NCBI GenBank assembly: GCA_000004985.1
Contig: GG738910.1
From: Naegleria gruberi
Lineage: Eukaryota
Direction: 5' to 3' (one strand)
Length of the DNA: 64,000 nt
Made by a program: the position numbers and the translations under genes. Positions 1,761 through 19,758 of the stretch are shown in pieces. The notes beneath the pieces were generated by a model. That model did not search any database. It was given only the letters and a program-made list of their open reading frames with translations, and was not told the origin of the DNA. Position 1 is the first letter of the stretch; every line of letters begins with the position of its first letter.

Positions 1761-1789
1761 AGTCACACACTACTGATGGATTGAAAAAA

Positions 1790-2665
1790 ATGTTACCAAC
1801 ATTTAATTCCTCAAATCTTCACACTAGAAAGAGAGGAGATTTATCATCTTCATCGTCATCGTCATCTTCATCAAATCAACAACAACAACAACATTTTAAA
1901 TCAAACAAGTCTAATTGTTTGAGTAAAATAGTTTATTTAATAATAGGCTTGTTATTATTTATTATAGTATTATATTATTTATTATTTAATAGTAATAATA
2001 ATATTGATACTAATAGTAATAATATTGATACTAGTACTACAACAATTACAACTACTACCAATAATAATGATTTAACAATAACAACAAATAATGATGATAA
2101 ATTAGTATCAAATAATAATAATAATAATAATAATATTGAAAATGTACTAGTGGATAATAACATTAAATCATCATCATCATCATCCAATAATAATGAACCA
2201 CAACAACATCCACAACCAAATCCACAAGAACAAACACAACATGAACAAACACAACAATCGGATCAACAAGTACAAACTAATGAACCACAAGCACAACCAT
2301 CTCCTCAACCACAAGCACCTCAACAAGTACCACCAACACAACAACAAGAAGTAGAACATTCAGTAGTTGAAGAAGAAAAGAAAGAAACTCCATCAAATAT
2401 TCCACCACCACTATTAAAACGTGAAAAGACAGAAAAGGAGAAACAACAAGATTTAATATTTGAAGAAATTGCTAAATTATTAACTAATCCAGATCAAACA
2501 AGTGAAGGATCCTATGGATGGTATAGAAAACAATTAGATACCAATAATAGATTAGGTAATACTTTATTTGAAGATCCTATAATGACTAAATTAGGATTTC
2601 AAGATACAGTTACAACAAGTGAAGTATTATTTCACTATTTTAGAACATTTAATACAACACAAGAA
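1790..2665 (+). CDS. 5' part of a gene truncated by the 5.3-kb gap. Poly-Ser/Gln N-terminus, one TM segment (IVYLIIGLLLFIIVLYYLLF), Q/P-rich linker, then a globular region (GSYGWYRKQLDTNNRLGNTLFEDPIMTKLGFQDTV...).
   Basis: ORF from the first ATG (1790; the track start at 1781 is TTG) runs into the N-gap at 2666. Composition is typical of dictyostelid coding sequence. Function unknown. Confidence 0.45.
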
Positions 2666-5600
2666 NNNNNNNNNNNNNNNNNNNNNNNNNNNNNNNNNNN
2701 NNNNNNNNNNNNNNNNNNNNNNNNNNNNNNNNNNNNNNNNNNNNNNNNNNNNNNNNNNNNNNNNNNNNNNNNNNNNNNNNNNNNNNNNNNNNNNNNNNNN
2801 NNNNNNNNNNNNNNNNNNNNNNNNNNNNNNNNNNNNNNNNNNNNNNNNNNNNNNNNNNNNNNNNNNNNNNNNNNNNNNNNNNNNNNNNNNNNNNNNNNNN
2901 NNNNNNNNNNNNNNNNNNNNNNNNNNNNNNNNNNNNNNNNNNNNNNNNNNNNNNNNNNNNNNNNNNNNNNNNNNNNNNNNNNNNNNNNNNNNNNNNNNNN
3001 NNNNNNNNNNNNNNNNNNNNNNNNNNNNNNNNNNNNNNNNNNNNNNNNNNNNNNNNNNNNNNNNNNNNNNNNNNNNNNNNNNNNNNNNNNNNNNNNNNNN
3101 NNNNNNNNNNNNNNNNNNNNNNNNNNNNNNNNNNNNNNNNNNNNNNNNNNNNNNNNNNNNNNNNNNNNNNNNNNNNNNNNNNNNNNNNNNNNNNNNNNNN
3201 NNNNNNNNNNNNNNNNNNNNNNNNNNNNNNNNNNNNNNNNNNNNNNNNNNNNNNNNNNNNNNNNNNNNNNNNNNNNNNNNNNNNNNNNNNNNNNNNNNNN
3301 NNNNNNNNNNNNNNNNNNNNNNNNNNNNNNNNNNNNNNNNNNNNNNNNNNNNNNNNNNNNNNNNNNNNNNNNNNNNNNNNNNNNNNNNNNNNNNNNNNNN
3401 NNNNNNNNNNNNNNNNNNNNNNNNNNNNNNNNNNNNNNNNNNNNNNNNNNNNNNNNNNNNNNNNNNNNNNNNNNNNNNNNNNNNNNNNNNNNNNNNNNNN
3501 NNNNNNNNNNNNNNNNNNNNNNNNNNNNNNNNNNNNNNNNNNNNNNNNNNNNNNNNNNNNNNNNNNNNNNNNNNNNNNNNNNNNNNNNNNNNNNNNNNNN
3601 NNNNNNNNNNNNNNNNNNNNNNNNNNNNNNNNNNNNNNNNNNNNNNNNNNNNNNNNNNNNNNNNNNNNNNNNNNNNNNNNNNNNNNNNNNNNNNNNNNNN
3701 NNNNNNNNNNNNNNNNNNNNNNNNNNNNNNNNNNNNNNNNNNNNNNNNNNNNNNNNNNNNNNNNNNNNNNNNNNNNNNNNNNNNNNNNNNNNNNNNNNNN
3801 NNNNNNNNNNNNNNNNNNNNNNNNNNNNNNNNNNNNNNNNNNNNNNNNNNNNNNNNNNNNNNNNNNNNNNNNNNNNNNNNNNNNNNNNNNNNNNNNNNNN
3901 NNNNNNNNNNNNNNNNNNNNNNNNNNNNNNNNNNNNNNNNNNNNNNNNNNNNNNNNNNNNNNNNNNNNNNNNNNNNNNNNNNNNNNNNNNNNNNNNNNNN
4001 NNNNNNNNNNNNNNNNNNNNNNNNNNNNNNNNNNNNNNNNNNNNNNNNNNNNNNNNNNNNNNNNNNNNNNNNNNNNNNNNNNNNNNNNNNNNNNNNNNNN
4101 NNNNNNNNNNNNNNNNNNNNNNNNNNNNNNNNNNNNNNNNNNNNNNNNNNNNNNNNNNNNNNNNNNNNNNNNNNNNNNNNNNNNNNNNNNNNNNNNNNNN
4201 NNNNNNNNNNNNNNNNNNNNNNNNNNNNNNNNNNNNNNNNNNNNNNNNNNNNNNNNNNNNNNNNNNNNNNNNNNNNNNNNNNNNNNNNNNNNNNNNNNNN
4301 NNNNNNNNNNNNNNNNNNNNNNNNNNNNNNNNNNNNNNNNNNNNNNNNNNNNNNNNNNNNNNNNNNNNNNNNNNNNNNNNNNNNNNNNNNNNNNNNNNNN
4401 NNNNNNNNNNNNNNNNNNNNNNNNNNNNNNNNNNNNNNNNNNNNNNNNNNNNNNNNNNNNNNNNNNNNNNNNNNNNNNNNNNNNNNNNNNNNNNNNNNNN
4501 NNNNNNNNNNNNNNNNNNNNNNNNNNNNNNNNNNNNNNNNNNNNNNNNNNNNNNNNNNNNNNNNNNNNNNNNNNNNNNNNNNNNNNNNNNNNNNNNNNNN
4601 NNNNNNNNNNNNNNNNNNNNNNNNNNNNNNNNNNNNNNNNNNNNNNNNNNNNNNNNNNNNNNNNNNNNNNNNNNNNNNNNNNNNNNNNNNNNNNNNNNNN
4701 NNNNNNNNNNNNNNNNNNNNNNNNNNNNNNNNNNNNNNNNNNNNNNNNNNNNNNNNNNNNNNNNNNNNNNNNNNNNNNNNNNNNNNNNNNNNNNNNNNNN
4801 NNNNNNNNNNNNNNNNNNNNNNNNNNNNNNNNNNNNNNNNNNNNNNNNNNNNNNNNNNNNNNNNNNNNNNNNNNNNNNNNNNNNNNNNNNNNNNNNNNNN
4901 NNNNNNNNNNNNNNNNNNNNNNNNNNNNNNNNNNNNNNNNNNNNNNNNNNNNNNNNNNNNNNNNNNNNNNNNNNNNNNNNNNNNNNNNNNNNNNNNNNNN
5001 NNNNNNNNNNNNNNNNNNNNNNNNNNNNNNNNNNNNNNNNNNNNNNNNNNNNNNNNNNNNNNNNNNNNNNNNNNNNNNNNNNNNNNNNNNNNNNNNNNNN
5101 NNNNNNNNNNNNNNNNNNNNNNNNNNNNNNNNNNNNNNNNNNNNNNNNNNNNNNNNNNNNNNNNNNNNNNNNNNNNNNNNNNNNNNNNNNNNNNNNNNNN
5201 NNNNNNNNNNNNNNNNNNNNNNNNNNNNNNNNNNNNNNNNNNNNNNNNNNNNNNNNNNNNNNNNNNNNNNNNNNNNNNNNNNNNNNNNNNNNNNNNNNNN
5301 NNNNNNNNNNNNNNNNNNNNNNNNNNNNNNNNNNNNNNNNNNNNNNNNNNNNNNNNNNNNNNNNNNNNNNNNNNNNNNNNNNNNNNNNNNNNNNNNNNNN
5401 NNNNNNNNNNNNNNNNNNNNNNNNNNNNNNNNNNNNNNNNNNNNNNNNNNNNNNNNNNNNNNNNNNNNNNNNNNNNNNNNNNNNNNNNNNNNNNNNNNNN
5501 NNNNNNNNNNNNNNNNNNNNNNNNNNNNNNNNNNNNNNNNNNNNNNNNNNNNNNNNNNNNNNNNNNNNNNNNNNNNNNNNNNNNNNNNNNNNNNNNNNNN

Positions 5601-7981
5601 NNNNNNNNNNNNNNNNNNNNNNNNNNNNNNNNNNNNNNNNNNNNNNNNNNNNNNNNNNNNNNNNNNNNNNNNNNNNNNNNNNNNNNNNNNNNNNNNNNNN
5701 NNNNNNNNNNNNNNNNNNNNNNNNNNNNNNNNNNNNNNNNNNNNNNNNNNNNNNNNNNNNNNNNNNNNNNNNNNNNNNNNNNNNNNNNNNNNNNNNNNNN
5801 NNNNNNNNNNNNNNNNNNNNNNNNNNNNNNNNNNNNNNNNNNNNNNNNNNNNNNNNNNNNNNNNNNNNNNNNNNNNNNNNNNNNNNNNNNNNNNNNNNNN
5901 NNNNNNNNNNNNNNNNNNNNNNNNNNNNNNNNNNNNNNNNNNNNNNNNNNNNNNNNNNNNNNNNNNNNNNNNNNNNNNNNNNNNNNNNNNNNNNNNNNNN
6001 NNNNNNNNNNNNNNNNNNNNNNNNNNNNNNNNNNNNNNNNNNNNNNNNNNNNNNNNNNNNNNNNNNNNNNNNNNNNNNNNNNNNNNNNNNNNNNNNNNNN
6101 NNNNNNNNNNNNNNNNNNNNNNNNNNNNNNNNNNNNNNNNNNNNNNNNNNNNNNNNNNNNNNNNNNNNNNNNNNNNNNNNNNNNNNNNNNNNNNNNNNNN
6201 NNNNNNNNNNNNNNNNNNNNNNNNNNNNNNNNNNNNNNNNNNNNNNNNNNNNNNNNNNNNNNNNNNNNNNNNNNNNNNNNNNNNNNNNNNNNNNNNNNNN
6301 NNNNNNNNNNNNNNNNNNNNNNNNNNNNNNNNNNNNNNNNNNNNNNNNNNNNNNNNNNNNNNNNNNNNNNNNNNNNNNNNNNNNNNNNNNNNNNNNNNNN
6401 NNNNNNNNNNNNNNNNNNNNNNNNNNNNNNNNNNNNNNNNNNNNNNNNNNNNNNNNNNNNNNNNNNNNNNNNNNNNNNNNNNNNNNNNNNNNNNNNNNNN
6501 NNNNNNNNNNNNNNNNNNNNNNNNNNNNNNNNNNNNNNNNNNNNNNNNNNNNNNNNNNNNNNNNNNNNNNNNNNNNNNNNNNNNNNNNNNNNNNNNNNNN
6601 NNNNNNNNNNNNNNNNNNNNNNNNNNNNNNNNNNNNNNNNNNNNNNNNNNNNNNNNNNNNNNNNNNNNNNNNNNNNNNNNNNNNNNNNNNNNNNNNNNNN
6701 NNNNNNNNNNNNNNNNNNNNNNNNNNNNNNNNNNNNNNNNNNNNNNNNNNNNNNNNNNNNNNNNNNNNNNNNNNNNNNNNNNNNNNNNNNNNNNNNNNNN
6801 NNNNNNNNNNNNNNNNNNNNNNNNNNNNNNNNNNNNNNNNNNNNNNNNNNNNNNNNNNNNNNNNNNNNNNNNNNNNNNNNNNNNNNNNNNNNNNNNNNNN
6901 NNNNNNNNNNNNNNNNNNNNNNNNNNNNNNNNNNNNNNNNNNNNNNNNNNNNNNNNNNNNNNNNNNNNNNNNNNNNNNNNNNNNNNNNNNNNNNNNNNNN
7001 NNNNNNNNNNNNNNNNNNNNNNNNNNNNNNNNNNNNNNNNNNNNNNNNNNNNNNNNNNNNNNNNNNNNNNNNNNNNNNNNNNNNNNNNNNNNNNNNNNNN
7101 NNNNNNNNNNNNNNNNNNNNNNNNNNNNNNNNNNNNNNNNNNNNNNNNNNNNNNNNNNNNNNNNNNNNNNNNNNNNNNNNNNNNNNNNNNNNNNNNNNNN
7201 NNNNNNNNNNNNNNNNNNNNNNNNNNNNNNNNNNNNNNNNNNNNNNNNNNNNNNNNNNNNNNNNNNNNNNNNNNNNNNNNNNNNNNNNNNNNNNNNNNNN
7301 NNNNNNNNNNNNNNNNNNNNNNNNNNNNNNNNNNNNNNNNNNNNNNNNNNNNNNNNNNNNNNNNNNNNNNNNNNNNNNNNNNNNNNNNNNNNNNNNNNNN
7401 NNNNNNNNNNNNNNNNNNNNNNNNNNNNNNNNNNNNNNNNNNNNNNNNNNNNNNNNNNNNNNNNNNNNNNNNNNNNNNNNNNNNNNNNNNNNNNNNNNNN
7501 NNNNNNNNNNNNNNNNNNNNNNNNNNNNNNNNNNNNNNNNNNNNNNNNNNNNNNNNNNNNNNNNNNNNNNNNNNNNNNNNNNNNNNNNNNNNNNNNNNNN
7601 NNNNNNNNNNNNNNNNNNNNNNNNNNNNNNNNNNNNNNNNNNNNNNNNNNNNNNNNNNNNNNNNNNNNNNNNNNNNNNNNNNNNNNNNNNNNNNNNNNNN
7701 NNNNNNNNNNNNNNNNNNNNNNNNNNNNNNNNNNNNNNNNNNNNNNNNNNNNNNNNNNNNNNNNNNNNNNNNNNNNNNNNNNNNNNNNNNNNNNNNNNNN
7801 NNNNNNNNNNNNNNNNNNNNNNNNNNNNNNNNNNNNNNNNNNNNNNNNNNNNNNNNNNNNNNNNNNNNNNNNNNNNNNNNNNNNNNNNNNNNNNNNNNNN
7901 NNNNNNNNNNNNNNNNNNNNNNNNNNNNNNNNNNNNNNNNNNNNNNNNNNNNNNNNNNNNNNNNNNNNNNNNNNNNNNNNN
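2666..7981. other. Assembly gap (5316 N). The three long 'ORFs' spanning it (1781..8020, 2619..8921, complement 2635..8016) are artefacts.
   Basis: Run of n. Probably collapsed repeat or family copies, given the flanking family genes. Confidence 0.99.
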
Positions 7982-8189
7982 AAATTTATTAGGATCATCA
8001 ACATTACCAACAACAAATAATGATCAAATTATTGGTGCATATAAATTATTGAATAATTTATTATTATTAGAATCTAATCATTCAGAGCCTTCTCATCATC
8101 CACAACAACAACAACAACAAGTAAATGATAGTACTAGTACTTTTATTACTAATAATAGTAATTTACATAATTATGATCTTCCTTCTAAT

Positions 8190-8921
8190 ATGAATAAATC
8201 AGAATCTCAAGATTCAAAACATCAATTAACTAGTAATACTAACAATAATAATAAGAAAAGAAAGAATGATCACATTCAAACTAGTAATTCTAATAATAAT
8301 TCTAATAGTAATGTTAATAATAATTCTAATAGTAATGGTAATAATTCTAATAATTCTAATTCTAATTCTAATTATAATAATGGTAATAATACTAATAATG
8401 GTAACATGTCATTTATAGATGAAACTAATAATGTAACATTAAAAGCTAAAGTGAATCAACGAAATAATAATTTAAATATTAAACAATCAAGATTGAGAAA
8501 ACCATTACAAAATGATAAATTATTAAAAAATTATTTTGAATTTGATAAACAACAACAATCAAATGATTTAATTAAATTTAAATTAATTGATACTACTATT
8601 AATAATATAAATGGTAATATTAAAGATAATTATGTAAATACATTTAATAATAGAATTGGGTGTAGAAAACCATCTATTGATCAAATTATTACAAGTGAAA
8701 AAGTTACATTTAATAATATTATAAATAATAATTTAATTAATAATATTGTAGTATATGATAATAATGATCAACAAGATAATTATTCATTACCTAAAGAAGA
8801 AGAAGAAGCAGATAATTTATTAAATATTGAAGATGAATCAATTTTCAATAATATTGAATTAAATAATGAAAGTGATGGTAATAGTTTTATCAGTTCATTT
8901 TCATTTCTATTTAAAGAATAA
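8190..8921 (+). CDS. Fam1 member b: MSFIDETNNVTLKAKVNQRNNNLNIKQSRLRKPLQNDKLLKNYFEFDKQQQSNDL..., IGCRKPSIDQIITSEKVTF..., ending EEEEADNLLNIEDESIFNNIELNNESDGNSFISSFSFLFKE.
   Basis: The frame is open from the gap. The first ATG after the gap is at 8190 (MNKSES...) and the MSFIDE Met is at 8406. All three family motifs are present, so the 5' end is uncertain. Confidence 0.5.
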   Translation: MNKSESQDSKHQLTSNTNNNNKKRKNDHIQTSNSNNNSNSNVNNNSNSNGNNSNNSNSNSNYNNGNNTNNGNMSFIDETNNVTLKAKVNQRNNNLNIKQSRLRKPLQNDKLLKNYFEFDKQQQSNDLIKFKLIDTTINNINGNIKDNYVNTFNNRIGCRKPSIDQIITSEKVTFNNIINNNLINNIVVYDNNDQQDNYSLPKEEEEADNLLNIEDESIFNNIELNNESDGNSFISSFSFLFKE

Positions 8922-9230
8922 TAAATTTATATTTAAACTTATTATAATCACCAAGGGATTCTATCAAATTTGTTAATAATCGTTTTACGCTAATGATTAG
9001 CAAGTAATATTGAGCCTACATGTTGAGATTCATATGTGAGAATCCCTCAAGAATTTGGAATCCATGGAGAGAGCATGAACTTTGGTTCCTTAATTTAAAC
9101 ATTAAGAAGGAGTGCCAACAGTGGTTGGTGACATGAAAGTCAAAACGACTGATTTATTCACAATCACAGTTCTGACATGTAATTGCTGAATTGTGTTTTA
9201 GAGATTATGTTTTTATTTTCATGCCATGTT

Positions 9231-9320
9231 CGCACAATACAGCAATAGTACTATCGTCCGAATTCGTCATGAAATCTGGAATTGTCAATTATTTCTTTCT
9301 ATTGTAGTGTATTGCTTCCG
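9231..9320 (+). promoter_or_regulatory. Conserved upstream module of Fam2 genes (...ACTATCGTCCGAATTCGTCATGAAATCTGGAATTGT...TTATTTCTTTCTATTGT...TATTGCTTC). Repeated at 10756-10850 and absent from the third copy.
   Basis: ~90-bp near-identical block located ~120-200 bp upstream of the ATGs of Fam2 copies a and b. The track ORF 9226..9420 over it is rejected as coding. Confidence 0.3.
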
Positions 9321-9442
9321 AGTTTCGTTCAATACAATTCAATACAAGGAAAGTATTATTGGAAATATGAGAGTGGATGAAATAGAGGATGCAAGTTTCT
9401 TTTGCTTGATGCTCAGTTGAATATTCACAAAAAAACAACATT

Positions 9443-10429
9443 ATGATGAATAATAACTCGACTTCAAGTTGGATAAATGAATTTTCCTCTACTGCTCATA
9501 CCTGTTCAGTTGATGTTTTTTGTGGAATGGTCTCTCCATCATTCTCCAACAACAAGCCTTCAATAACAATGAACAATACAATTACAGATGATGAATGTAT
9601 TGAACCAAGTCTAAATCTTGATGTTATTGATTTTATTCAGAGTTGGGAATTATTAAAGATGATGACAACTCCAAAGCAACAATTATTTAATAGAAAGCCT
9701 TTTGACAAGCCTTCTATTCACCAAATGTCAGCCTTCAATAATATCCAATGTACTAAAATCACCTCAACTGTTATGAATTCTATTGATGCTGATATTAAGT
9801 GCACTCCATCACACTCATCCACATGCCATATTGTATTACCATCACCAACTGAGACATTATCTCTACTGACACTTAACACCTCACCTCCTCATCAGCAACC
9901 CTTCAATGCTAATACTATTGAAAATAGCCTGACCAATACCATTTCTAATACTGACATTGCTGATAAGGTACTTTTAACCAATTTAGAATCATATCAATTT
10001 CCCAAGAATCCTTATCATGAACATTATGATCAATCACCACCACCATCAAATGATATATCCATGATGCCACTCCAACAACAAACTAATGTAAACAATACAT
10101 TCAACAAGAAGGATGATAATCGTATTCTAAAGAGAAAGAGAAAGATTTCTAATGTATCTTCATTCGAATCAGAAAAGAGAAAAACCTCAATTTCATCCAC
10201 CACACCACCTACAACATGTTCAAGTAATTCATCCTCAATTGGTAATAATAGTTCATTATCAACAAATGTGCACTCACAACAATCATTCAATAATTGTATT
10301 ATAATTTCAAATCCAAAACATTTGAAAAGAAGAAGAAAATATCAAAAGAGAAAGAATTCAGCCAATACAAATCCTGCTCAAACTCAAATGGAATTTCACT
10401 TTCCAGTTTGGACTTTTCATTTAGAATAA
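9443..10429 (+). CDS. Fam2 member a (328 aa): N-terminal MMNNNSTSSWINE...CIEPSLNLDVIDFIQSWELLKMMTTPKQQLFNRKP, S/T/P-rich middle with KRKRKISNVSSFESEKRKTS, C-terminal basic block NPKHLKRRRKYQKRKNSANTNPAQTQMEFHFPVWTFHLE.
   Basis: ATG ORF. Paralogous to 11002, 11657, 15288, 16323 and complement 26260. No recognisable Pfam-type domain. The basic block is NLS-like. Confidence 0.6.
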   Translation: MMNNNSTSSWINEFSSTAHTCSVDVFCGMVSPSFSNNKPSITMNNTITDDECIEPSLNLDVIDFIQSWELLKMMTTPKQQLFNRKPFDKPSIHQMSAFNNIQCTKITSTVMNSIDADIKCTPSHSSTCHIVLPSPTETLSLLTLNTSPPHQQPFNANTIENSLTNTISNTDIADKVLLTNLESYQFPKNPYHEHYDQSPPPSNDISMMPLQQQTNVNNTFNKKDDNRILKRKRKISNVSSFESEKRKTSISSTTPPTTCSSNSSSIGNNSSLSTNVHSQQSFNNCIIISNPKHLKRRRKYQKRKNSANTNPAQTQMEFHFPVWTFHLE

Positions 10430-10486
10430 ATTGTTTTTTTAATAATATTTGTTTTATATTCTCTGTGTGTCCGAATAATTTAATAT

Positions 10487-10592
10487 TCAACAAGATAATT
10501 ATTCATTACCACTTGAAGAAGCAGATAATTTATTAAATATTGAAGATGAACCAATTTTCAATTTTATTGAATTAAATAATGAAAGTGAAAAT
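10487..10592 (+). pseudogene. Orphan 3'-end fragment of a Fam1 gene (copy of 8765-8880, ~90% identity) lacking the terminal SFLF motif. Marks a duplication breakpoint.
   Basis: 'caacaagataattattcattacc...gcagataatttattaaatattgaagatgaa(t/c)caattttcaat...attgaattaaataatgaaagtga' is shared between 8760-8880 and 10487-10592. The same downstream spacer reappears at 11368-11487, immediately after the gap. Confidence 0.55.
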
Positions 10593-11001
10593 AAACTTCT
10601 GTAAAGAATATACAATTTATGATCAAGTAATAGTGAGATTGTATAATTTCGAAATACGATGAACCAGAATTTACCCTAACACTTACTGACATTCTATTAA
10701 GAAGGAGTGCCACAGCTGACGACATGAAAGAACTGTAATTGTTTAAGAGATTTTATTCGCACTGTACAACAATAGAACTATCGTCCGAATTAGTCATGAA
10801 ATCTAGGAATTGTAGATTATTTCTTTCTATTGTTGGGTATTGCTTCAGGATTTTGTATTTTTAAGGACCTCAATTACTAACATTATTCTTCAAGTACATC
10901 AAGTATTGGAAATATGAGAGAATAAATTGGGCGAGATGCAATTCTCTTTGGAGTTTATGCAGAAGAAATATTCAATGAATATTCTCAAAAAAACAAACAT
11001 T

Positions 11002-11317
11002 ATGATGAGCAATAACTTGACTTCAAGTTGGATAAATGAATATTCCTCTCCTGCTCATACCTGTACAGTTGATGTTCTTTGTGGAATGGTCACTCAATTT
11101 TCATCATCATTCTCAAACTACTCAATTAACAATCAATGTATTGAACCAAGTCTAAATCTTGATGTTATTGAGTTTATGCAGAGTTGGGAATTATTAAAGA
11201 TGATGACAACTCCAAAGCAACAATTATTTAATAGACAGCCTGTTGACAAGCCTTCTATTCAACAAATGTCAGCCTTCAATAATATCCAATGTACTAACAT
11301 CAGCTCAACAGTTATGA
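11002..11317 (+). CDS. Fam2 member b, 5' part only (MMSNNLTSSWINEYSSPAHTCTVDVLCGMV...EPSLNLDVIEFMQSWELLKMMTTPKQQLFNRQP...), truncated by a 50-N gap at 11318-11367.
   Basis: Same N-terminal motifs as 9443 and 11657. An upstream in-frame ATG at 10936 (MQFSLEFMQKKYSMNILKK) is also possible. Confidence 0.5.
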
Positions 11318-11367
11318 NNNNNNNNNNNNNNNNNNNNNNNNNNNNNNNNNNNNNNNNNNNNNNNNNN
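11318..11367. other. Assembly gap (50 N)
   Basis: Run of n. Confidence 0.99.
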
Positions 11368-11656
11368 AACTTCTGTAAAGAATATACAATTTATGATCAA
11401 GTAATAGTGAGATTGTATAATTTCGAAATACGATGAACCAGAATTTACCCTAACACTTACTGACATTCTATTAAGAAGGAGTGCCACAGCATAGTTGTTT
11501 AAGGATTTTGTATTTTTAAGGACCTCAATTACTAACATTATTCTTCAAGTACATCAAGTATTGGAAATATGAGAGAATAAATTGGGCGAGATGCAATTCT
11601 CTTTGGAGTTTATGCAGAAGAAATATTCAATGAATATTCTCAAAAAAACAAACATT

Positions 11657-12640
11657 ATGATGAACAATAACTCGACTTCAAGTTGGATAAATGAATATTC
11701 CTCTCCTGCTCATACCTGTACAGTTGATGTTCTTTGTGGAATGGTCACTCAATTTTCATCATCATTCTCAAACTACTCAATTAACAATCAATGTGTTGAA
11801 CCAAGTCTGAATCTTGATGTTATTGATTTTATGCAGAGTTGGGAATTATTAAAGATGATGACAAATCCAAAGCAACAATTATTTAATAGAAAGCCTAATG
11901 ACAAGCCTTCTATTCAACAAATGTCAGCCTTCAATAATATCCAATGTACTAACATCAGCTCAACTGTTATGAATCCTATTGATGATCATGATGATGATAT
12001 GAAGGACACTCCACCACACTTATCCAAATCCCATATTGTATTTCCATCACCTCAACCATCAACTCAACTGTTCCTATCACCAACAGAAACATTATCTCTG
12101 ACTCTTAACACCTCACCTCCTCAACCATTCAATAACCATAACGAAAATAGCCTGACCAATACCATTTCTAATACTGACACTGCTGATAAGGTACTTTTAC
12201 CCAATTTAGAATCATATCAATTTCTGATGAGCATTAAGAATCCTTATCAACAATATGTGGATCAATCACCACCATCATCATCAATTGAAACATCCATGAT
12301 GCCACTCCAACAACAAACTAATGTAAACAATACATTCAATGATAATCGTATTCTAAAGAGAAAGAGAAAGATTTCTAATGTATCTTCATTCGAATCAGAA
12401 AAGAGAAAAACCTCAAGTTCATCCTCCTCATCATCTACAAGTAATGTATCCTCAATTGGTAATAACAGTTCATTATCAACAACATTCAAAACTCCACTCA
12501 ATAATTGTATTGTAATTTCAAATCCAAAACATTTGAAAAGAAGAAGAAAATATCAAAAGAGAAAGAATTCAGCCAATACAAATCCAGCTCAAACTCAAAT
12601 GGAATTTCATTTTCCAGTATGGACATTTCATTTAGAATAA
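11657..12640 (+). CDS. Fam2 member c (~328 aa from ATG 11657; 352 aa if the upstream ATG 11591 is used): same architecture as a, ending NPKHLKRRRKYQKRKNSANTNPAQTQMEFHFPVWTFHLE.
   Basis: ATG ORF, ~85-90% identical to copy a at both the N- and C-termini. The proximal promoter is identical to copy b (10851-11001 vs 11505-11656). Confidence 0.6.
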   Translation: MMNNNSTSSWINEYSSPAHTCTVDVLCGMVTQFSSSFSNYSINNQCVEPSLNLDVIDFMQSWELLKMMTNPKQQLFNRKPNDKPSIQQMSAFNNIQCTNISSTVMNPIDDHDDDMKDTPPHLSKSHIVFPSPQPSTQLFLSPTETLSLTLNTSPPQPFNNHNENSLTNTISNTDTADKVLLPNLESYQFLMSIKNPYQQYVDQSPPSSSIETSMMPLQQQTNVNNTFNDNRILKRKRKISNVSSFESEKRKTSSSSSSSSTSNVSSIGNNSSLSTTFKTPLNNCIVISNPKHLKRRRKYQKRKNSANTNPAQTQMEFHFPVWTFHLE

Positions 12641-13170
12641 ATTGTTTTTTTAATCATATTTGTATGCAATATTCTCAAGACATGTAGTTTTCGGTTGTGT
12701 GTGAGCATCAAGTTGTGGATCCACAACACAGCCTAGCAGCAATGGAACCTCGGCACGGATACCCATAAGTAAATAAACCATGGAATCTCAAAGTTACATT
12801 GTTCACTTTAATACTCACATTTCAGAAAAGAGACCATTCTATAATTTGCAAAAGATCATTTCAAGATTCCAGATAACAATCAGAAAGAATATTCTCGTTA
12901 TCTAGTTACATTTTAACATAGAGATTGGAAGTTTCAAATTTCTTAATTGTACGGAATGGAAACGCATCTTCAAACTGAGTTTTTTATTCATGAAGTTTTG
13001 CATGATAAATGGTTAGATATCCTTAATATTTTTGTTAAATTTCCATTTTTAGTTTATAGATTCAAATTCTTCACTGAAATCTCCATGTTATAAACAGCAA
13101 CAATTTCACGAAAGTAAACTATACTAAACACCATATAGAAAGAAAACACACAACTAGAATATTCTATCCA

Positions 13171-13677
13171 ATGAATCCAAACAAACAATCGAATAGAAGA
13201 AAGTCTAAAGCACTCAAATTAACTGTTGTCGATTTTTGTTCTTCCAATCCAACATCAACTAGAAGATCTAACAATGATGATGTTGTCGATGATAATTGTA
13301 AAGTAATGACAAGTAAATATACAGAATACTTTTCAAATAATTCAAAGCCTTTCCAAGTCATTTCATTTCCATTCAAGCCTTCGAATACTTGCTCATCTGG
13401 AATTCAAAAACAACCAAAGAAAAAGAGAATTGAATCGCATCATGATGATCAATTTGGTAAAATACAATTTGGTAATAATAATACAGTTTGTAGTGGTGGC
13501 GGAGGTGATGATTCAGTAGTGGCAAGCCTTCATCAAGATCGAATTGAAGAATCGTCTTCTAATGATCAGCAGCAGCCTTCAACACCAACTTTAATTCAAT
13601 CATTACCATCAATGGATAAAAAAAGACAAAGAAGAACCTCAATTACTATTAGAGAATTATTAAATTATGATGATTAA
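13171..13677 (+). CDS. Fam3 member a (168 aa): MNPNKQSNRRKSKALKLTVVDFCSSNPTS...CKVMTSKYTEYFSNNSKPFQVISFP...MDKKRQRRTSITIRELLNYDD.
   Basis: ATG ORF. ~85% identical to complement(26909..27415). Shares the C-terminal R-R-T-[SA]-I-T-x-x-E-L-L-N motif with complement(20797..21369). Confidence 0.55.
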   Translation: MNPNKQSNRRKSKALKLTVVDFCSSNPTSTRRSNNDDVVDDNCKVMTSKYTEYFSNNSKPFQVISFPFKPSNTCSSGIQKQPKKKRIESHHDDQFGKIQFGNNNTVCSGGGGDDSVVASLHQDRIEESSSNDQQQPSTPTLIQSLPSMDKKRQRRTSITIRELLNYDD

Positions 13678-14518
13678 TGCCAGATCGTGAGATGAAAATT
13701 TTAAGGATTTGGCAATTATTGAATAAAGACTTGATGTTATTTGAAAAGATTTCAAAGTTGGTTCAATCCTCAATCTCCAGACGTGGCCTACCAACCTTAT
13801 TAAAAGATGAAATACATTGAGGATTCGAATATTTTCTTCTAATTTTTGTTGCTGTAAAATGAAGAGCGGGAAAATTATTCTCAACACACTTTCTATTTTA
13901 AATCCATTCAAAAGTCCATAATGCTCCTTTAAAGATATTCCACTCTTTGATTGCAGGTTTTAATCTTTGATGACTTTCAATATTAATTATAACACACGAG
14001 TTCAGTTCATCAATTAATTGTTAAATATTGGCGCATGTGGAGCTCCATGTATAGCATGTATTTCATTGTTATCCGACATGAGTACTTTCACTGATGAAAC
14101 AAGTCTTTACATAACCAGTTAACACATGCACACATGCACATGCAACAAATTGAATGCGTTGAGTATTATGAGTTACATGCATGCATATGTGAACATTGTT
14201 TTCTGTTGTGTGAAGGGTAATGATGTGTTTAATGACTGACGAAGACAATTTTGAATCTCAAAATAGGAAATAAGTGTACCCTTACATGGAGATTAAATCT
14301 CTCTTTTTTATGCTCCAATCGTTCACCTGTTGATTGGTTGAGTTTCTTTAATTGTATTGTTTGCATTGATTCGTGTTAATGTTTGTACTGACTCGTTCAC
14401 AAAAGGAACATTTGAGAGAGATTGTAAGCCATGCTTTGTGCTCAAGATAGTAAGTCATAGTATCGAATAAAGTATCCCACAGAAAATCCAACACAAGGCT
14501 CAGAAAAAAAACGAACAA

Positions 14519-15064
14519 ATGCCAAGTGGGTTGAGCAGGAAAATCCCTTCAAAATTGAGAAAACAAATCGACCACGATAAATTCAAACAATTTTACTTTG
14601 TTATGGTGCCAAATAGTAAACTAAACAAAACTAAATGTAGAGATGAAATTAGTAGGAATGAAGAATATACAGTAATGGATTTTAATACAATTCAGAGGTC
14701 AAATAGTGAAATGATGTCAAGTAAAATTATTGAATCTTTGTTTCATTTTCATGTTTCAGAGAAAACTGATACAGAAAATGAAACGAATGGAATGAAGGTT
14801 TCTAATAGCGAAGGTAGTGTTTTGAATACCATTGTTCATCCAAAGGAAAGTACGGACAGTAATAATGGTTGTAGATATAATTTCCAATCAATGTGTTTCC
14901 CACATTCAATTTTGACTAATCAACAATCTGAAAAAAGATCAGAATCATCATCATTACTAAATTCAAAATTAATGCTCTCCTTAGATTATGAAGGAATTGT
15001 TGAACTATTAACTGATGAACAATCTCCATATTATCAAATGTTGAAAAAACCAATATTTTGGTAA
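14519..15064 (+). CDS. Hypothetical protein (181 aa), no recognisable domain
   Basis: ATG ORF of moderate length between family genes. No paralog in the window. Confidence 0.3.
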   Translation: MPSGLSRKIPSKLRKQIDHDKFKQFYFVMVPNSKLNKTKCRDEISRNEEYTVMDFNTIQRSNSEMMSSKIIESLFHFHVSEKTDTENETNGMKVSNSEGSVLNTIVHPKESTDSNNGCRYNFQSMCFPHSILTNQQSEKRSESSSLLNSKLMLSLDYEGIVELLTDEQSPYYQMLKKPIFW

Positions 15065-15287
15065 TGTTTAACCGAAATGTACAAAATAGAATTTCTTAAT
15101 AACGTTTGTTGGCCAACAGTTGAAAGTTGTGAAATCTCTTTCCATAACACTATGGTATCTCAAGCCTAAATAGACCTGCCAAGTAATCATTTATTTCATG
15201 ATTTTCGTAAAGATACCTCTTGGCAATTTGAGAAGAACTTGATATACAATCATGATTGCTCTCTTTTGTTGAGGAGATAATAATGCC

Positions 15288-15937
15288 TTGTTCAGTATCC
15301 ANNNNNNNNNNNNNNNNNNNNNNNNNNNNNNNNNNNNNNNNNNNNNNNNNNATGTTGATGTACCCTCTCCATTTAATATTCATTGTGGAATAGTCTCTCC
15401 ATCATCAATGTCATCCTCCTCCTCTTCTATCAATACCAGTAACAATGAATTGCCAAGTTTAAATCTTGATATTGTTGATTTTATGCAGAGTTGGAAAATA
15501 TTACAGACAATCAAACAAGTTCATCACCAACAAGATGACAACGCTTTGTTTTTCATTCAGATGAACTAGTGAAAGATCAACAATTAATTAGTTCCTCATT
15601 AGTAGTATTAAACAATTCTGATCACAATGAGGCACTAGAAACGTTTCAACTTCCAACAATATTCACCACCACCAAGAATGAAAATACTACCATGCCCAAT
15701 ATCTCATCAATCTCAAAGAAGAGAAAGATTTCCTCTTCTTCATTCAAATATTATACAAGTCCAAATACAGAAAAGAAAATCTCAATTTCATCCACTACTT
15801 CTTGTATTGATAATTCAAATTCAAAACATTTGAAAAGAAGACGAAAATGTCAAAAGAGAAAGAATTCAGCCTATTCCAATCCAGCACAAACTCAAATGGA
15901 GTTTAATTTTCCAATATGGACTTTTCATATGGAATAA
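15288..15937 (+). pseudogene. Fam2 member d, disrupted: 49-N gap at 15302-15351 and a 2-bp indel relative to copy e around 15555-15565 that splits the reading frame (track ORFs 15288..15569 and 15569..15937). Retains SLNLDIVDFMQSWKIL and ...NSKHLKRRRKCQKRKNSAYSNPAQTQMEFNFPIWTFHME.
   Basis: Alignment by eye with copy e (16323..16928): d has 'gatgacaacgctttgtttttcattcag' where e has 'gatgacatctgctattttcattcaa' (+2 nt in d, in a T-run). Confidence 0.45.
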
Positions 15938-16322
15938 ATTGTAAATTATTAAAATAATTCAAAATTCAATATTTTGCAAAATACTCATCAACTTGATATC
16001 TATTATTTGAATGTATCTATTATTATTAACATATTGTATGTGTTTTGAAAGTTGTAAAATCTCACGATCAATCAATTTATATTGGAGAATATTCAAGAAT
16101 ATTTGATTTACGATGATGTTGTGAACGAAGTCATTTCTCTCTCTTTAAAAATTCGCTTTGATTTGATTCATCGCACAAACCAAAAAAGCTACTCTATCCA
16201 AAAACGAATTGGAAAAATTGGACTTGGAACGGATATTATTCAAGTAGTGCAGAATATACAAAATTACCGCACCACTAACACATCTTAGATATTATTCAAA
16301 AAAAACAAATCACTAGTTCATC

Positions 16323-16928
16323 ATGCTGATAACCTCTTCTTCCACCTGTACATTCAATAGCAATTTCAGCAATACAATACAATATCAAGATAATGAGCCA
16401 ATTCTAAATCTTGATATTGTTGATTTCATGCAGAGTTGGGAATTATTCAAAATGACAACAACAAATCAACAAGATGACATCTGCTATTTTCATTCAAATG
16501 AACCATTGAAAGATCAACAATTAATTACTTCCTCATTAGTATTAAACAATTCTAACTACAATGAGGCATTAGAAACCTTTCCAATAACAATACCTCTGCC
16601 CACAACCAATAATGAAAATACTACCACGCTCAATACCATACCAATAATCAATAATCAGAAGAAGAGAAAGATTTCCTCTTCCTTCAAATATTATACAAGT
16701 CCAAATACAGAAAAGAAGAAGAAAATCTCAATTTCATCCACTTCTATTACTACTTCATCTTGTCATTGTTCAAATAATGTATATTGTAAATTATCTTGTA
16801 ATTGTATTGTAAATTCAAATCCAAAACATTTGAAAAGAAGAGAATATCAAAAGAGAAAGACCTATTCAAATTCAGCACAAGCTCAAATGGAATTTAATTT
16901 TCCAATATGGACTTTTCATTTGGAATAA
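16323..16928 (+). CDS. Fam2 member e (201 aa, short form): ...EPILNLDIVDFMQSWELFKMTTT...NPKHLKRREYQKRKTYSNSAQAQMEFNFPIWTFHLE.
   Basis: ATG ORF carrying both family motifs. The Cys-containing stretch SSCHCSNNVYCKLSCNC is unique to this copy. Confidence 0.55.
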   Translation: MLITSSSTCTFNSNFSNTIQYQDNEPILNLDIVDFMQSWELFKMTTTNQQDDICYFHSNEPLKDQQLITSSLVLNNSNYNEALETFPITIPLPTTNNENTTTLNTIPIINNQKKRKISSSFKYYTSPNTEKKKKISISSTSITTSSCHCSNNVYCKLSCNCIVNSNPKHLKRREYQKRKTYSNSAQAQMEFNFPIWTFHLE

Positions 16929-17515
16929 ATTGGTTAATAATTGTAAAATTATTCAAAGCCTTCCATAATTCAATTCTCAATATTCATCAATTCGTTTGAT
17001 TATTAAATAGTTGGCTGATGAGAAATTAGGTACATTCAAGCCTTTGATTAATATTCAGGTAGGAAATCCGTATAATCATAGATGATTTCCTATGCCTTGC
17101 AGCGGAATACAAATTAGCAACAAACAATATACTACTATAGTAAGTACCATTATTGCTAGCAGCACAAATAATATTCGGATTGTACACAATTAAAAATCGT
17201 GGCACCTGTGTTTTCCCATTTTTTATAAATATTTTTATTAATTACAAGTAATAAATACATGTGTCAATTAATTGTGTTGTTTGTTGTTGTTGTTGATGGT
17301 GAGTGTGCAACGATAACGAATTCAATTTTCAACTCTGCAAGTTCGGGAATAAAAGAAAACAAATCAAATAAAAAGTTGAATGGATGACGTGAGCTAATTT
17401 AATCTATTTGGAAGTTTTACATGTTTAATAATGGTCTTAATTCAGTGACTGACTTCATAAATAGAAATGTAATGATGCTACTCTATTGACTTTTTCATTC
17501 GAATAAGAGATTCTT

Positions 17516-18061
17516 TTAATTGTAAAGGAATGAAATTGAACTGAGAAAGCTTTCACAATCATCAAATTCTACTGCTTCTTCTTCTTCTTCTTTTGAAGTA
17601 TTATCACTGCTTCCACTACTACTGCTTCCACCACTACTATTGTTGATTGTTAGTGATGATGATGAATATTCAATATTACTAGATGCATGTTGATTCAAAT
17701 TATTAGTATTATTCATAGTTTTGCATTTAACCTTTGTAATAATTGTATCCTTTACATTTTCACTAGTACCTGATGATAATGATGATGCATTCGAGCAAGT
17801 TGTAATATTTTCTGAAAAAGTATTGTCAGTAGATGCATTTGGTGGATTAATAATTTTGTAAATAGTTAAATCACTTTCTGTTAATTGTTGCTTATCAAAT
17901 TCAAAGTAATTTTTCAGTAAATTATCATTTTGTAATGGTTTTCTCAATCTCGATTGTTTAATTTTCAATTCCTTATTTCTCTTTTTCACTTTTGCTTTCT
18001 TTGTAACATTACTAGTTTCATCAATGAATGACATGTTGTTGGCATTCTGGTTCTTCTTCAT
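17516..18061 (-). CDS. Fam1 member c (181 aa): MKKNQNANNMSFIDETSNVTKKAKVKKRNKELKIKQSRLRKPLQNDNLLKNYFEFDKQQLTESDLTIYKI...EEEEEAVEFDDCESFLSSISFLYN.
   Basis: ATG ORF. Complete set of family motifs. Near-identical tandem paralog at 19195..19758. Confidence 0.6.
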   Translation of the reverse strand: MKKNQNANNMSFIDETSNVTKKAKVKKRNKELKIKQSRLRKPLQNDNLLKNYFEFDKQQLTESDLTIYKIINPPNASTDNTFSENITTCSNASSLSSGTSENVKDTIITKVKCKTMNNTNNLNQHASSNIEYSSSSLTINNSSGGSSSSGSSDNTSKEEEEEAVEFDDCESFLSSISFLYN

Positions 18062-19194
18062 TGGATATGTGTTCTTGATTATTTTTTAATAATATTAATC
18101 ACTCTTGTTGTGGTATTTTTGTTGTACTAACTTGTTGTTGCTGTTATTTGACTTTCTTTTATAAGACAGCATTCCATATATAGAACATGCCAAATGTATA
18201 TTCATTCCAATAGATACAGTGCTGGTGTTTTCAATCAACATACCTATATTATTTGAGATTGATAGGTCAATGTTATATTCTCTTGAACTGGATTGAATGT
18301 AGATGAGAGCTTGTTGATGATTTTTTTGTTGTAAACTAAAGTCATGTCATGAAGCCTTGGCGAGAGTTGTTATGTAATCAAATGATTAAATTAGAAAGTC
18401 TATAAGTGGTTATTAGTATTAAATAAGTGGAATTATTCTCAATAATAGTTCTCTAATTTCCCATTGCCCGACTATTAGCCATTCGAATACAAATGATAGA
18501 CATGCATGTTTAACCATGATGATTCGGCATGTGAAGGTTGAATGGATGTGTTATTAGATGCATGCAATGGAGTACAAGTTTGATACATGCATCAAACAAA
18601 CAATTAGATCATCATCATGATGCTTCACCACATGCATGCAATAAATACATGTGATTCTAAAAAGCCATCAACAACACTTTAAGGCTCACAAAACCTTTCG
18701 CGAAATAAATTGTTGTTGAAACATTTTCAAAAAATACAACACACATCTACCAAGTGTTGAGATAGTAAAAGCATGTGTGGTTTTCTAGCTTTGTCATCAT
18801 GATTCAATTTTTTTTAAAGTTGTAATTGCTTTCTAGACCCCAAATGTGTTCTCAGGATTGAATAAGGAAGGTAGAACTCGTTCCTGCGATATTCATAAAA
18901 AGTAAGTTGGACAACTAGATTAATGTTTATTCGTATCTCTCTCTTGCAACACATGCACGCAAGAAATGAATAGTGCTCACCTGTTTGATGAAGAACCTAT
19001 ATTACAAAAGTTAGCATGCATTCAATAATTGTTTAAAAAAATCTTAAAAGTAATACAACTTTTGGAAACGATGATTGTGTGAGCTAATTTAATGTTTTTA
19101 GTAATTTTACATGTTTATTGATTGAACTTAATTTGAATAGATCATAAATAGACATGCGTAAATACTACTCGTAAAACTGTTTCAAAGAGAGAAC

Positions 19195-19758
19195 TTAATT
19201 ATATAGAAACGAAATTGAACTGAGAAAGCTTTCACAATCATCAAATTCTACTGCTTCTTCTTCTTTTAAAGTATTATCACTGCATGCACTACTGCTGCTT
19301 CCACTAGTACTGCTTCCACCACTACTGCTGTTGATTGAGTTGATTGTTAGTGATGATGATGAATATTCAATATTACTAGATGCATGTTGATTCAAATTAT
19401 TATTATTCATAGTTTTGCATTTAACCTTCTGACATGTAATAATTGTATCAACTGTTGATGTTTCTATTGGACATGTTGTATTATTTTCAATACTACTAGA
19501 AGTATTAGAATTATCAATGATGGTGGTTGATGCATTTGGTGGATTAATAATTTTGTAAATAGTTAAATCACTTTCTGTTAATTGTTGCTTATCAAATTCA
19601 AAATAATTTTTCAGTAAATTATCATTTTGTAATGGTTTTCTCAATCTCGATTGTTTAATTTTCAATTCCTTATTTCTCTTTTTCACTTTTGCTTTCTTTG
19701 TAACATTGCTAGTTTCATCAATGAATGACATGTTGTTGGAATTCTGGTTCTTCTTCAT
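19195..19758 (-). CDS. Fam1 member d (187 aa), tandem duplicate of c
   Basis: ATG ORF. The N-terminal 75 aa and the C-terminal 25 aa are identical to c. The middle S/T-rich region differs slightly. Confidence 0.6.
   Translation of the reverse strand: MKKNQNSNNMSFIDETSNVTKKAKVKKRNKELKIKQSRLRKPLQNDNLLKNYFEFDKQQLTESDLTIYKIINPPNASTTIIDNSNTSSSIENNTTCPIETSTVDTIITCQKVKCKTMNNNNLNQHASSNIEYSSSSLTINSINSSSGGSSTSGSSSSACSDNTLKEEEAVEFDDCESFLSSISFLYN

What the first reader, a model, noticed from the sequence alone, without database searches (positions are those of the whole stretch)
10480..11487. Duplication breakpoint preserved: Fam1 3'-end fragment and spacer travel with each Fam2 repeat unit
Downstream of Fam2 copy a lies a ~105-bp copy of the 3' end of the upstream Fam1 gene. 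The fragment at 10487-10592 matches 8765-8880 but lacks the final SFLF codons. It is followed by a ~120-bp spacer (aacttctgtaaagaatatacaatttatgatcaagtaatagtgag...ttaagaaggagtgccacagc). The same spacer reappears at 11368-11487, directly after the 50-N gap, in front of copy c. The Fam2 tandem array therefore arose by unequal exchange with one breakpoint inside a Fam1 gene. The array unit runs from the Fam1 3' fragment through the spacer and promoter to the Fam2 gene. This is direct sequence evidence for the mechanism and relative order of the amplification: the Fam1-Fam2 junction existed before Fam2 was triplicated.
Basis: seen in the sequence. Interest (0 to 1): 0.5.

Follow-up and report, generated by a model that had tools for sequence, protein, structure and literature searches.

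The report
Tandem duplication scar; third copy doubtful
In this Naegleria gruberi draft scaffold, a decayed piece of the upstream gene's 3' end really does mark an old 1.7-kb tandem duplication, but the supposed third gene copy is most likely the other haplotype of the second copy misplaced by the assembler, so the finding is ordinary.

Summary
The window is Naegleria gruberi NEG-M draft sequence. Both observations hold. Positions 10481-10588 copy the Fam1 3' end at 8762-8875 (87.7% identity, E 7e-31). Positions 10594-10716 equal 11368-11490 exactly. Homology between unit a and unit b runs unbroken from inside Fam1, through its stop codon and the spacer, into Fam2. This shows a real, old (dS about 0.14) head-to-tail duplication of about 1.7 kb with its left breakpoint inside Fam1.

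The "triplication" is not supported. Copy b is cut by the gap. Its 127 residues are identical to a full-length gene on another N. gruberi scaffold. That scaffold has only two annotated Fam2 genes between the Fam1-like gene and F3. The contig carrying a and b matches that scaffold at 412 of 413 residues, whereas the flanking contigs differ from it by 3-4%. NEG-M is described as tetraploid, and the genus as heterozygous. Copies b and c are therefore probably alleles placed in tandem by the scaffolder.

Nothing shows a second Fam1 fragment in the gap. Homologous "unequal exchange" is not shown either. This is an ordinary duplication scar plus a probable assembly artefact.

The parts
7982..8921 (+). 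3' part of the Fam1 gene. Its 5' part is lost in the 5,316-N gap. It ends ...NNESDGNSFISSFSFLFKE*.
   Evidence: ORF list. A Fam1 domain is shared with 134-922, 17516-18061(-), 19195-19758(-) and 22828-23883.
8762..8875 (+). Source segment inside Fam1 that is copied in the relic. The left breakpoint of the duplicated unit lies at about 8744-8762.
   Evidence: BLASTN 87.7%, E 6.7e-31. Junction alignment.
8922..9442 (+). Fam1-Fam2a intergenic spacer of unit a. It holds the conserved 16-mer at 9102-9117 and an upstream block at 9229-9330.
9443..10429 (+). Fam2 copy a (328 aa). It is an N. gruberi predicted protein with no Pfam domain.
10430..10467 (+). 3' flank of copy a. It is homologous to the 3' flank of c (12641 to about 12690) up to ..ATATTCTC..TGTGTGT. 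The right breakpoint of the unit is at about 10467.
10468..10592 (+). Fam1 3'-end relic, a pseudogene fragment. In the Fam1 frame it reads QQDNYSLPLEEADNLLNIEDEPIFNFIELNNESENKLL*. It has no start codon and its C-terminal SF.SS.SFLF motif is deleted.
10593..11001 (+). Spacer of unit b. Positions 10594-10716 are identical to 11368-11490. Positions 10717-10839 are present in a and b but absent from c.
11002..11317 (+). Fam2 copy b, 5' third only (105 codons), cut by the contig end. With its upstream extension it is identical over 127 aa to EFC38101.1 (P0008) on another scaffold.
11318..11367 (.). 50-N scaffold gap between two contigs whose ends resemble each other (724 bp against 605 bp).
11368..11656 (+). 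Upstream region of copy c, starting at the contig start. It is identical to b's upstream region apart from two deletions totalling about 119 bp.
11657..12640 (+). Fam2 copy c (the JGI model EFC38150.1 starts at 11591). It is the positional equivalent of b on the other scaffold, since both lie directly upstream of F3.

Best explanation
Two things are layered here.

(1) A genuine, fairly old tandem duplication. This part is shown. A segment of about 1.7 kb was duplicated head to tail. It ran from roughly 115-160 bp before the Fam1 stop codon, through the Fam1-Fam2 spacer and the Fam2 gene, to about 38 bp past the Fam2 stop. The duplication placed a start-less copy of the Fam1 3' end between the two Fam2 genes. 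That copy has since decayed: 8 substitutions, a 6-bp deletion and a 21-23-bp deletion that removes the conserved C-terminal motif. It has no function. The two breakpoints share no real homology. I therefore infer that the founding event was illegitimate (replication slippage, template switching or end joining) rather than homologous unequal crossing-over.

(2) The apparent third copy is most likely an assembly artefact. This part is inferred. The strain is heterozygous and polyploid, and this cluster was assembled more than once. One haplotype reads a'-b-F3'. The other reads a''-c-F3. Scaffold X, which holds the window, is built mainly from the second haplotype. Its contig 7982-11317 (a plus the 5' end of b) is of the first haplotype's type. 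The scaffolder placed this contig in front of the contig that starts at 11368. The two contig ends overlap by about one Sanger read but differ by a 119-bp indel and 10-12 substitutions. They were not merged and were separated by a nominal 50-N gap. Each haplotype therefore carries two Fam2 genes and one Fam1 relic.
For: Real duplication:
- Collinear homology runs from 8762 to 10452 in unit a and continues in units b and c.
- The relic hits only the adjacent Fam1 gene.
- dS between a and c is 0.136 and between a and b 0.142.

Artefact:
- The organism is N. gruberi. Naegleria is described as mainly heterozygous diploid (PMC9928731). NEG-M is described as tetraploid (bioRxiv 10.64898/2026.08.18.745565).
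- Other scaffolds carry the same genes. The 261,328-bp scaffold holds consecutive entries D2VYQ0-Q3: Fam1-like P0005, a' P0001, b P0008 and F3' P0012. The 8,928-bp scaffold holds counterparts of window 14.5-23.1 kb. The 13,371-bp scaffold holds a'' P0006.
- Window b equals P0008 at 127/127 aa, whereas c matches P0008 at 95.7%.
- Contig 7982-11317 differs from that scaffold by 1 event in 413 aa. The flanking contigs differ by 13 in 426 (p=0.0017).
- The a/a'' divergence (3.4%) and the b/c divergence (4%) match the divergence of the flanking gene pairs.
- The window's first 26 kb holds six gaps and the remaining 38 kb holds none.
- Only this gap has similar flanks.
- A true third unit would need at least about 830 bp inside a gap written as 50 N, while another gap on the same scaffold is sized at 5,316 N.
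Against: - I could not obtain the DNA of the other scaffolds or the reads. The haplotype assignment therefore rests on protein identities and on the order of accession numbers.
- Three distinct a-type sequences exist. The window's a has a 1-codon deletion relative to both a' and a''. One haplotype must therefore have been assembled twice, or there are more than two haplotypes or loci.
- The meaning of a 50-N gap in this assembly (size floor or unknown size) is my assumption.
- A copy-number polymorphism (3 copies on this haplotype, 2 on the other) would give the same protein-level picture.
- A c-type gene on the other scaffold could simply be unannotated.
Confidence: 0.62

Rival explanations
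1. One chromosome truly carries three units, a-b-c. Unit c arose recently from b by unequal crossing-over between units. The gap hides the 3' two-thirds of b plus a second Fam1 relic. The other scaffold is a two-copy allele, so the locus shows copy-number polymorphism.
For: - b and c are far closer to each other than to a: dS 0.034 against 0.14, and the upstream DNA is identical apart from deletions.
- Once two units exist, homologous unequal exchange is easy.
- Contig order and orientation in the scaffold are those expected of a tandem array.
- The window's a differs from a' by one codon, so contig 7982-11317 is not simply the same sequence as the other scaffold.
Against: - Only two Fam2 genes are annotated between Fam1-like and F3' on the other scaffold, and b there occupies the position of c.
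- b-specific substitutions are shared 100% between the window's b and the other scaffold's b. Copy c is as far from them (4%) as alleles of the flanking genes are from each other.
- This model leaves the third a-type sequence (a'', on the 13-kb scaffold) without a locus.
- The gap is written as 50 N but would need at least about 830 bp.
Confidence: 0.25
2. The two large scaffolds are not haplotypes. They are paralogous segments, a recent segmental duplication of the whole cluster elsewhere in the genome, and the small scaffolds are their alleles. Copies b and c would then be paralogues at different loci or within one locus.
For: Three a-type sequences and several near-identical gene pairs exist on four scaffolds. 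The cluster has an evident history of duplication, including an old inverted one.
Against: The partner genes are collinear, each has a single partner, and the pairs are 95-99.4% identical over window positions 0-23 kb. Partners vanish beyond 26 kb. This is the pattern expected of unmerged haplotypes in a heterozygous, low-coverage stretch. Tetraploidy already explains more than two variants.
Confidence: 0.08
3. The relic does not mark a breakpoint inside Fam1. A whole Fam1+Fam2 pair was duplicated, and most of the second Fam1 copy was deleted later.
For: Deletions are frequent here: 6, 21-23, about 18 and about 101 bp within 2 kb. Fam1 and Fam2 genes recur together across the cluster.
Against: This model needs two events where one suffices. 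The 3' flank of a abuts the relic directly (10467/10468) with no other Fam1-upstream sequence. The two models cannot be told apart from one sequence.
Confidence: 0.1
4. The Fam1 piece was captured and moved by a transposable element, or by retroposition.
For: A 19-nt imperfect inverted repeat brackets each Fam2 coding sequence (9420-9438 and 10431-10449; 11633-11651 and 12642-12660).
Against: The relic lies outside those repeats. The segment occurs only once elsewhere in the window, at the adjacent gene. Collinear homology includes the intergenic DNA, which retroposition would not carry. No terminal repeats or target-site duplications flank the unit.
Confidence: 0.02

Closest known systems
Truncated-gene relics at the junctions of tandem segmental duplications. 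An example from my own recollection, not checked here, is the human X-linked opsin array, where each repeat unit carries a truncated TEX28 copy.
   Same: The units lie head to tail. The unit boundary falls inside a neighbouring gene, so a start-less piece of that gene rides along with the duplicated gene and decays. The relic shows that the gene adjacency existed before the duplication.
   Different: Here only one relic is demonstrated. The relic comes from the 3' end of the upstream gene. The genes are lineage-specific orphans of unknown function, evolving almost neutrally (dN/dS about 0.8-1.0).
False duplications in draft assemblies of heterozygous or polyploid genomes. Unmerged haplotype contigs ('haplotigs') get placed in tandem across a scaffold gap. 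This is general knowledge of assembly artefacts and is not cited from a paper read here.
   Same: Near-identical sequence lies on both sides of a nominal gap. The overlap is about one read long and is interrupted by an indel and SNPs. Alternative scaffolds carry the same genes at 95-99%. The region is gap-rich. The strain is polyploid and heterozygous.
   Different: Read depth and mate pairs, the usual proof, could not be examined. One haplotype seems to be represented twice: on the other scaffold and in contig 7982-11317.
Copy-number change of tandem arrays by homologous unequal crossing-over.
   Same: This mechanism would apply to a b-to-c step if that step is real, because the units share 1.6-1.7 kb of homology.
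   Different: The founding a-to-b/c event has no homology at its breakpoints. The b-to-c step is not demonstrated.

Membership tests
Tandem segmental duplication with a junction relic | Two collinear units lie head to tail on the same strand | tested here: met
   8762-10452 is collinear with 10481-11317 plus 11973-12663.
Tandem segmental duplication with a junction relic | At the junction, the right end of the unit abuts the left end of the unit | tested here: met
   The 3' flank of a, homologous to the 3' flank of c as far as about 10467, is followed at once by Fam1-derived sequence.
Tandem segmental duplication with a junction relic | The relic derives from the adjacent gene, not from a dispersed paralogue | tested here: met
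   There is a single BLASTN hit in the 64 kb. TBLASTN of five Fam1-like proteins gives only the 8-kb gene as a match to the relic. No other database protein carries that C-terminal segment.
Tandem segmental duplication with a junction relic | The relic is truncated and decaying | tested here: met
   It has no start codon, codes 38 codons then a stop, has deletions of 6 bp and 21-23 bp, and has lost the conserved SF.SS.SFLF end.
Homologous unequal crossing-over as the founding mechanism | A stretch of sequence homology shared by the two breakpoints | tested here: not met
   There is only a 17/20 AT-rich patch (8741-8759 versus 10441-10460). It lies 8-20 bp before the junction and is separated from it by TCTCTGTGTGTCC.
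Three-copy (triplicated) Fam2 array | Three separate units on one DNA molecule | tested here: inconclusive
   b is only 105 codons long and ends at a gap. b equals the other scaffold's second gene. That scaffold has two annotated Fam2 genes.
Three-copy (triplicated) Fam2 array | A second Fam1 relic upstream of c | not testable with these tools
   The contig starts at 11368, at the position equivalent to 10594, and everything upstream is N.
Assembly false duplication from unmerged haplotypes | The genome is heterozygous and of ploidy 2 or more | tested here: met
   Literature: PMC9928731 and bioRxiv 10.64898/2026.08.18.745565, which calls the strain tetraploid. Near-identical gene pairs on other scaffolds.
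Assembly false duplication from unmerged haplotypes | The duplicated sequence sits at two contig ends facing one scaffold gap | tested here: met
   10594-11317 versus 11368-11972. This is the only one of the six gaps with similar flanks.
Assembly false duplication from unmerged haplotypes | Haplotype identity switches between neighbouring contigs | tested here: met
   1 difference in 413 aa against 13 in 426 aa relative to the other scaffold, Fisher p=0.0017.
Assembly false duplication from unmerged haplotypes | Read depth of each copy is about half (or a fraction) of single-copy depth, and mate pairs imply a negative gap | not testable with these tools
   No reads and no DNA of the other scaffolds are available.
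Transposon-mediated gene-fragment capture | The fragment is bounded by element termini and the unit is dispersed in many copies | tested here: not met
   No flanking terminal repeats. There is only the adjacent source copy.

The most novel reading that the evidence does not exclude
The three-unit array is real on one haplotype, while another haplotype of the same tetraploid clone carries two units. This would be a copy-number polymorphism produced by recent homologous unequal crossing-over between units or alleles. It would be a locus-level trace of recombination in Naegleria gruberi, an organism whose sexual cycle has never been observed.
Probability: 0.22. Interest if true: 0.3.

Novelty: new member of a known kind. 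Interest (0 to 1): 0.12.

Why it matters
The finding matters little beyond bookkeeping. It documents how one lineage-specific, near-neutrally evolving gene pair in Naegleria gruberi grew by a 1.7-kb tandem duplication whose boundary fell inside the neighbouring gene.

It also flags the first 23-26 kb of this scaffold as a mosaic of haplotypes. Gene counts there are inflated, and one JGI gene model (EFC38149.1) is chimeric. Anyone counting paralogues or inferring recent amplification in this genome should first collapse haplotype redundancy.

If the third copy were real, it would show ongoing unequal recombination, which would be of modest interest for the question of sex in Naegleria.

Tried and rejected
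- Fetching DNA of the N. gruberi scaffolds that carry the partner genes. The look-up of encoding contigs found no record for Fam2a, a NamZ-like control gene, P0001, P0002, P0008 or P0006. The decisive scaffold-to-scaffold DNA alignment could therefore not be made.
- The genome paper (Fritz-Laylin 2010) and the 2011 review are not held. Assembly conventions such as the meaning of 50-N gaps, and the measured heterozygosity, could not be checked.
- The third homology search, with the ORF at 1781-2665, gave no hits. It was meant to learn what else lies on the 13-kb scaffold.
- Testing whether all 50-N gaps hide overlapping contig ends. Only the gap at 11318 does, so there is no systematic pattern to lean on.
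- Function of the families. There are no Pfam domains in Fam1, Fam2, F3 or F4. No Rfam family (one sub-threshold hit at E 0.95) and no tRNA lie in or near the units. No relatives exist in viral contigs.
- Transposon capture: rejected.
- The conserved 16-mer TTAAGAAGGAGTGCCA occurs exactly only in the three spacers. I treat it as inherited spacer sequence, not as a demonstrated regulatory element.
- The AT-rich 17/20 similarity near the two breakpoints was considered as the crossover site. It was rejected because unit-a flank sequence continues 8-20 bp beyond it.

Full report
WHAT THE WINDOW IS. The Fam2a ORF (9443-10429) matches 'predicted protein [Naegleria gruberi]' at 286 of 287 aligned residues. 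The copy-c ORF is 100% identical to EFC38150.1. The window is therefore a stretch of a 243,952-bp scaffold of the N. gruberi NEG-M draft assembly. I call this scaffold X. The window has six runs of N, all in the first 26 kb: five of exactly 50 N and one of 5,316 N. Downstream genes are ordinary eukaryotic signalling genes, including a kinase, SH3, RCC1, ankyrin/VWA, an adenylate cyclase and a RasGEF. Fam1, Fam2 and their neighbours F3 (13171-13677) and F4 (14519-15064) have no Pfam domain.

CHECK OF THE OBSERVATION. Self-BLASTN gives two clear matches.
- 8762-8875 matches 10481-10588 at 87.7% (E 6.7e-31). This is the only match to that segment in the window.
- 10594-10716 matches 11368-11490 at 100% over 123 bp (E 6e-61).

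Both observations are real and far beyond chance.

The multiple alignment and the junction alignments add detail.
- Homology between unit a and unit b continues across the Fam1 stop codon into the spacer.
- The relic has a 6-bp deletion and a 21-23-bp deletion. The latter removes the C-terminal GNSFISSFSFLF.. motif, which other Fam1 paralogues also carry (for example P0022 ends ..SFLSSISFLFN).
- In the Fam1 frame the relic reads QQDNYSLPLEEADNLLNIEDEPIFNFIELNNESENKLL* and has no start codon.
- The 'spacer' start at 10594 is simply where the post-gap contig begins.

THE REAL DUPLICATION. The 3' flank of unit a is homologous to that of c as far as about 10467 (..ATATTCTC..TGTGTGT). Fam1-derived sequence follows at once. 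The unit therefore runs from about 8760 to about 10467, roughly 1.7 kb. It comprises the last 115-160 bp of Fam1, the spacer, Fam2 and about 38 bp of 3' flank.

The source is the adjacent Fam1 gene. TBLASTN with five Fam1-like proteins finds the relic only with the gene ending at 8921. A database search with that gene's C-terminal half finds no other protein carrying the segment.

Divergence is substantial. dS is 0.136 between a and c and 0.142 between a and b. dN/dS is about 0.8-1.0 over most of the protein and 0.32 over the last 55 codons.

The breakpoints share no usable homology. There is only a 17/20 AT-rich patch, displaced from the junction. 'Unequal exchange' in the homologous sense is therefore not shown. 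An illegitimate founding event is the more economical inference.

No terminal repeats or dispersed copies suggest a mobile element.

IS THERE A THIRD COPY? Copy b is only 105 codons long and ends at the contig end (11317). The next contig starts at 11368 with sequence identical to b's upstream region. It lacks about 119 bp that both a and b possess, through two deletions. The larger deletion lies between AG(A)GATTTT direct repeats. The contig then runs at 97.5% identity to b. The two contig ends facing this gap therefore overlap in content by 724 bp against 605 bp, about one Sanger read. None of the other five gaps shows this.

Cluster look-ups show that the assembly holds this region more than once.
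- A 261,328-bp scaffold, Y, carries four consecutive entries (D2VYQ0-Q3, EFC38099-38102): P0005, P0001, P0008 and P0012.
  - P0005 is 95.5% identical to the window ORF at 134-922.
  - P0001 is a', identical to a except for one codon.
  - P0008 is a full-length 351-aa gene.
  - P0012 is F3', 97.1% identical to F3.
- An 8,928-bp scaffold carries counterparts of window 14.5-23.1 kb, at 96-99.4% identity.
- A 13,371-bp scaffold carries a'' (P0006), 96.6% identical to a.
- Genes beyond 26 kb have no such partner.

P0008 is identical to window copy b over all 127 comparable residues. It is 95.7% identical to c. On Y, then, only two Fam2 genes are annotated between the Fam1-like gene and F3', and b sits exactly where c sits on X.

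Counting differences from Y gives the key contrast.
- The contig carrying a+b shows 1 event in 413 residues.
- The flanking contigs of the same scaffold show 13 in 426 (Fisher p=0.0017).
- Copy c shows 14 in 349.
- The a/a'' pair differs by 8 in 234.

The simplest reading is two diverged haplotype classes, A (a/a'-b-F3') and B (a''-c-F3). Scaffold X would then be a mosaic of B-type contigs with one A-type contig (7982-11317) inserted. The literature describes Naegleria as mainly heterozygous diploid (PMC9928731) and strain NEG-M as tetraploid (bioRxiv 10.64898/2026.08.18.745565). This also accommodates the near-identical pair a/a'.

A real third unit would need at least about 830 bp in the gap: the rest of b, its flank and a relic. 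The gap is written as 50 N on a scaffold where another gap is sized at 5,316 N. I take 50 N to be a floor value, but I could not verify that convention.

WHAT REMAINS OPEN. I could not retrieve DNA of the other scaffolds or any reads. A true copy-number polymorphism (three units on this haplotype, two on the other) is therefore not excluded. I give it about 0.25. In either case, nothing in the data shows a second Fam1 fragment in the gap. If b and c are alleles, a relic very probably precedes c on its own haplotype, but it is the allele of the one at 10468-10592, not a second one.

An oddity applies under both readings. b and c show no substitution in 285 bp of shared upstream DNA but 10 in 316 bp of coding DNA, 8 of them non-synonymous (Fisher p=0.002). 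This suggests a recombination or gene-conversion boundary near the start codon, or diversifying change in the N-terminal part.

VERDICT. The feature is an ordinary tandem-duplication scar in a fast-evolving orphan-gene cluster. The 'triplication' is probably a haplotype-assembly artefact. Interest is low.

Noticed in passing
window 13171-28216: The cluster looks like an old inverted segmental duplication centred near 20.8 kb. F3 at 13171-13677(+) matches 26912-27415(-) at 75% aa. Fam2-like genes at 15288-16928(+) mirror those at 24709-26332(-). Fam1-like genes at 17516-19758(-) mirror those at 22828-24444(+).
   Followed up: partly
window 134-10429: The GenBank/JGI model EFC38149.1 (P0007, 798 aa) is chimeric. 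It fuses the ORF at 134-922, part of the ORF at 1781-2665, the Fam1 3' end (about 8753-8877) and Fam2a from residue 23, across the 5,316-N gap. It uses a putative 629-bp GT-AG intron from 8879 to 9507 (and my reading of the sequence).
   Followed up: partly
window 10265-10429, 12476-12640, 15803-15934, 16800-16925, 24709-24828(-): All Fam2-like genes share a conserved C-terminus, KHLKRRRKYQKRKN..NPAQTQMEFHFPVWTFHLE. Members on other scaffolds (P0004, P0009) share it too. dN/dS is 0.32 there against about 0.95 for the rest of the protein. No known domain matches.
   Followed up: partly
window 10594-11317 vs 11368-11972: b and c have zero substitutions in 285 bp of shared upstream DNA but 10 in 316 bp of coding DNA, 8 of them non-synonymous (Fisher p=0.002). 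The changes are split between both lineages when polarised with a. This suggests a gene-conversion or recombination boundary at the start codon, or diversifying selection.
   Followed up: partly
window 9420-9438/10431-10449, 10978-10996, 11633-11651/12642-12660: A 19-nt imperfect inverted repeat brackets each Fam2 a/b/c coding sequence. AATATTC[AT]CAAAAAAACAA lies just before the ATG, and its complement lies just after the stop. There are 5 matches against 0.72 expected. It is absent from the other Fam2-like genes. It may be only A-rich and T-rich UTR composition.
   Followed up: partly
L001 1-2617 (ENA metagenome contig ERZ929261) vs window 54042-54696 and 14650-15949: A contig from a related Naegleria, about 85% identical, joins the homologue of window 54.0-54.7 kb directly to the homologues of F4 and the Fam2-like gene at 15352-15949. 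Either gene order differs in that organism or the metagenome contig is chimeric.
   Followed up: no
window 24709-25370 and 27707-28216 (- strand): 24879-25370(-) is 92% aa-identical to the gene at 27707-28216(-). It abuts the 50-N gap at 24829-24878, and a Fam2 C-terminus (24709-24828) lies on the other side of that gap. This could be another recent duplicate or another misjoined contig.
   Followed up: no
window 8001-9000: The Fam1 coding region is only 19% G+C, with long Asn-codon (AAT) runs, against 29-38% for most of the rest of the window.
   Followed up: no
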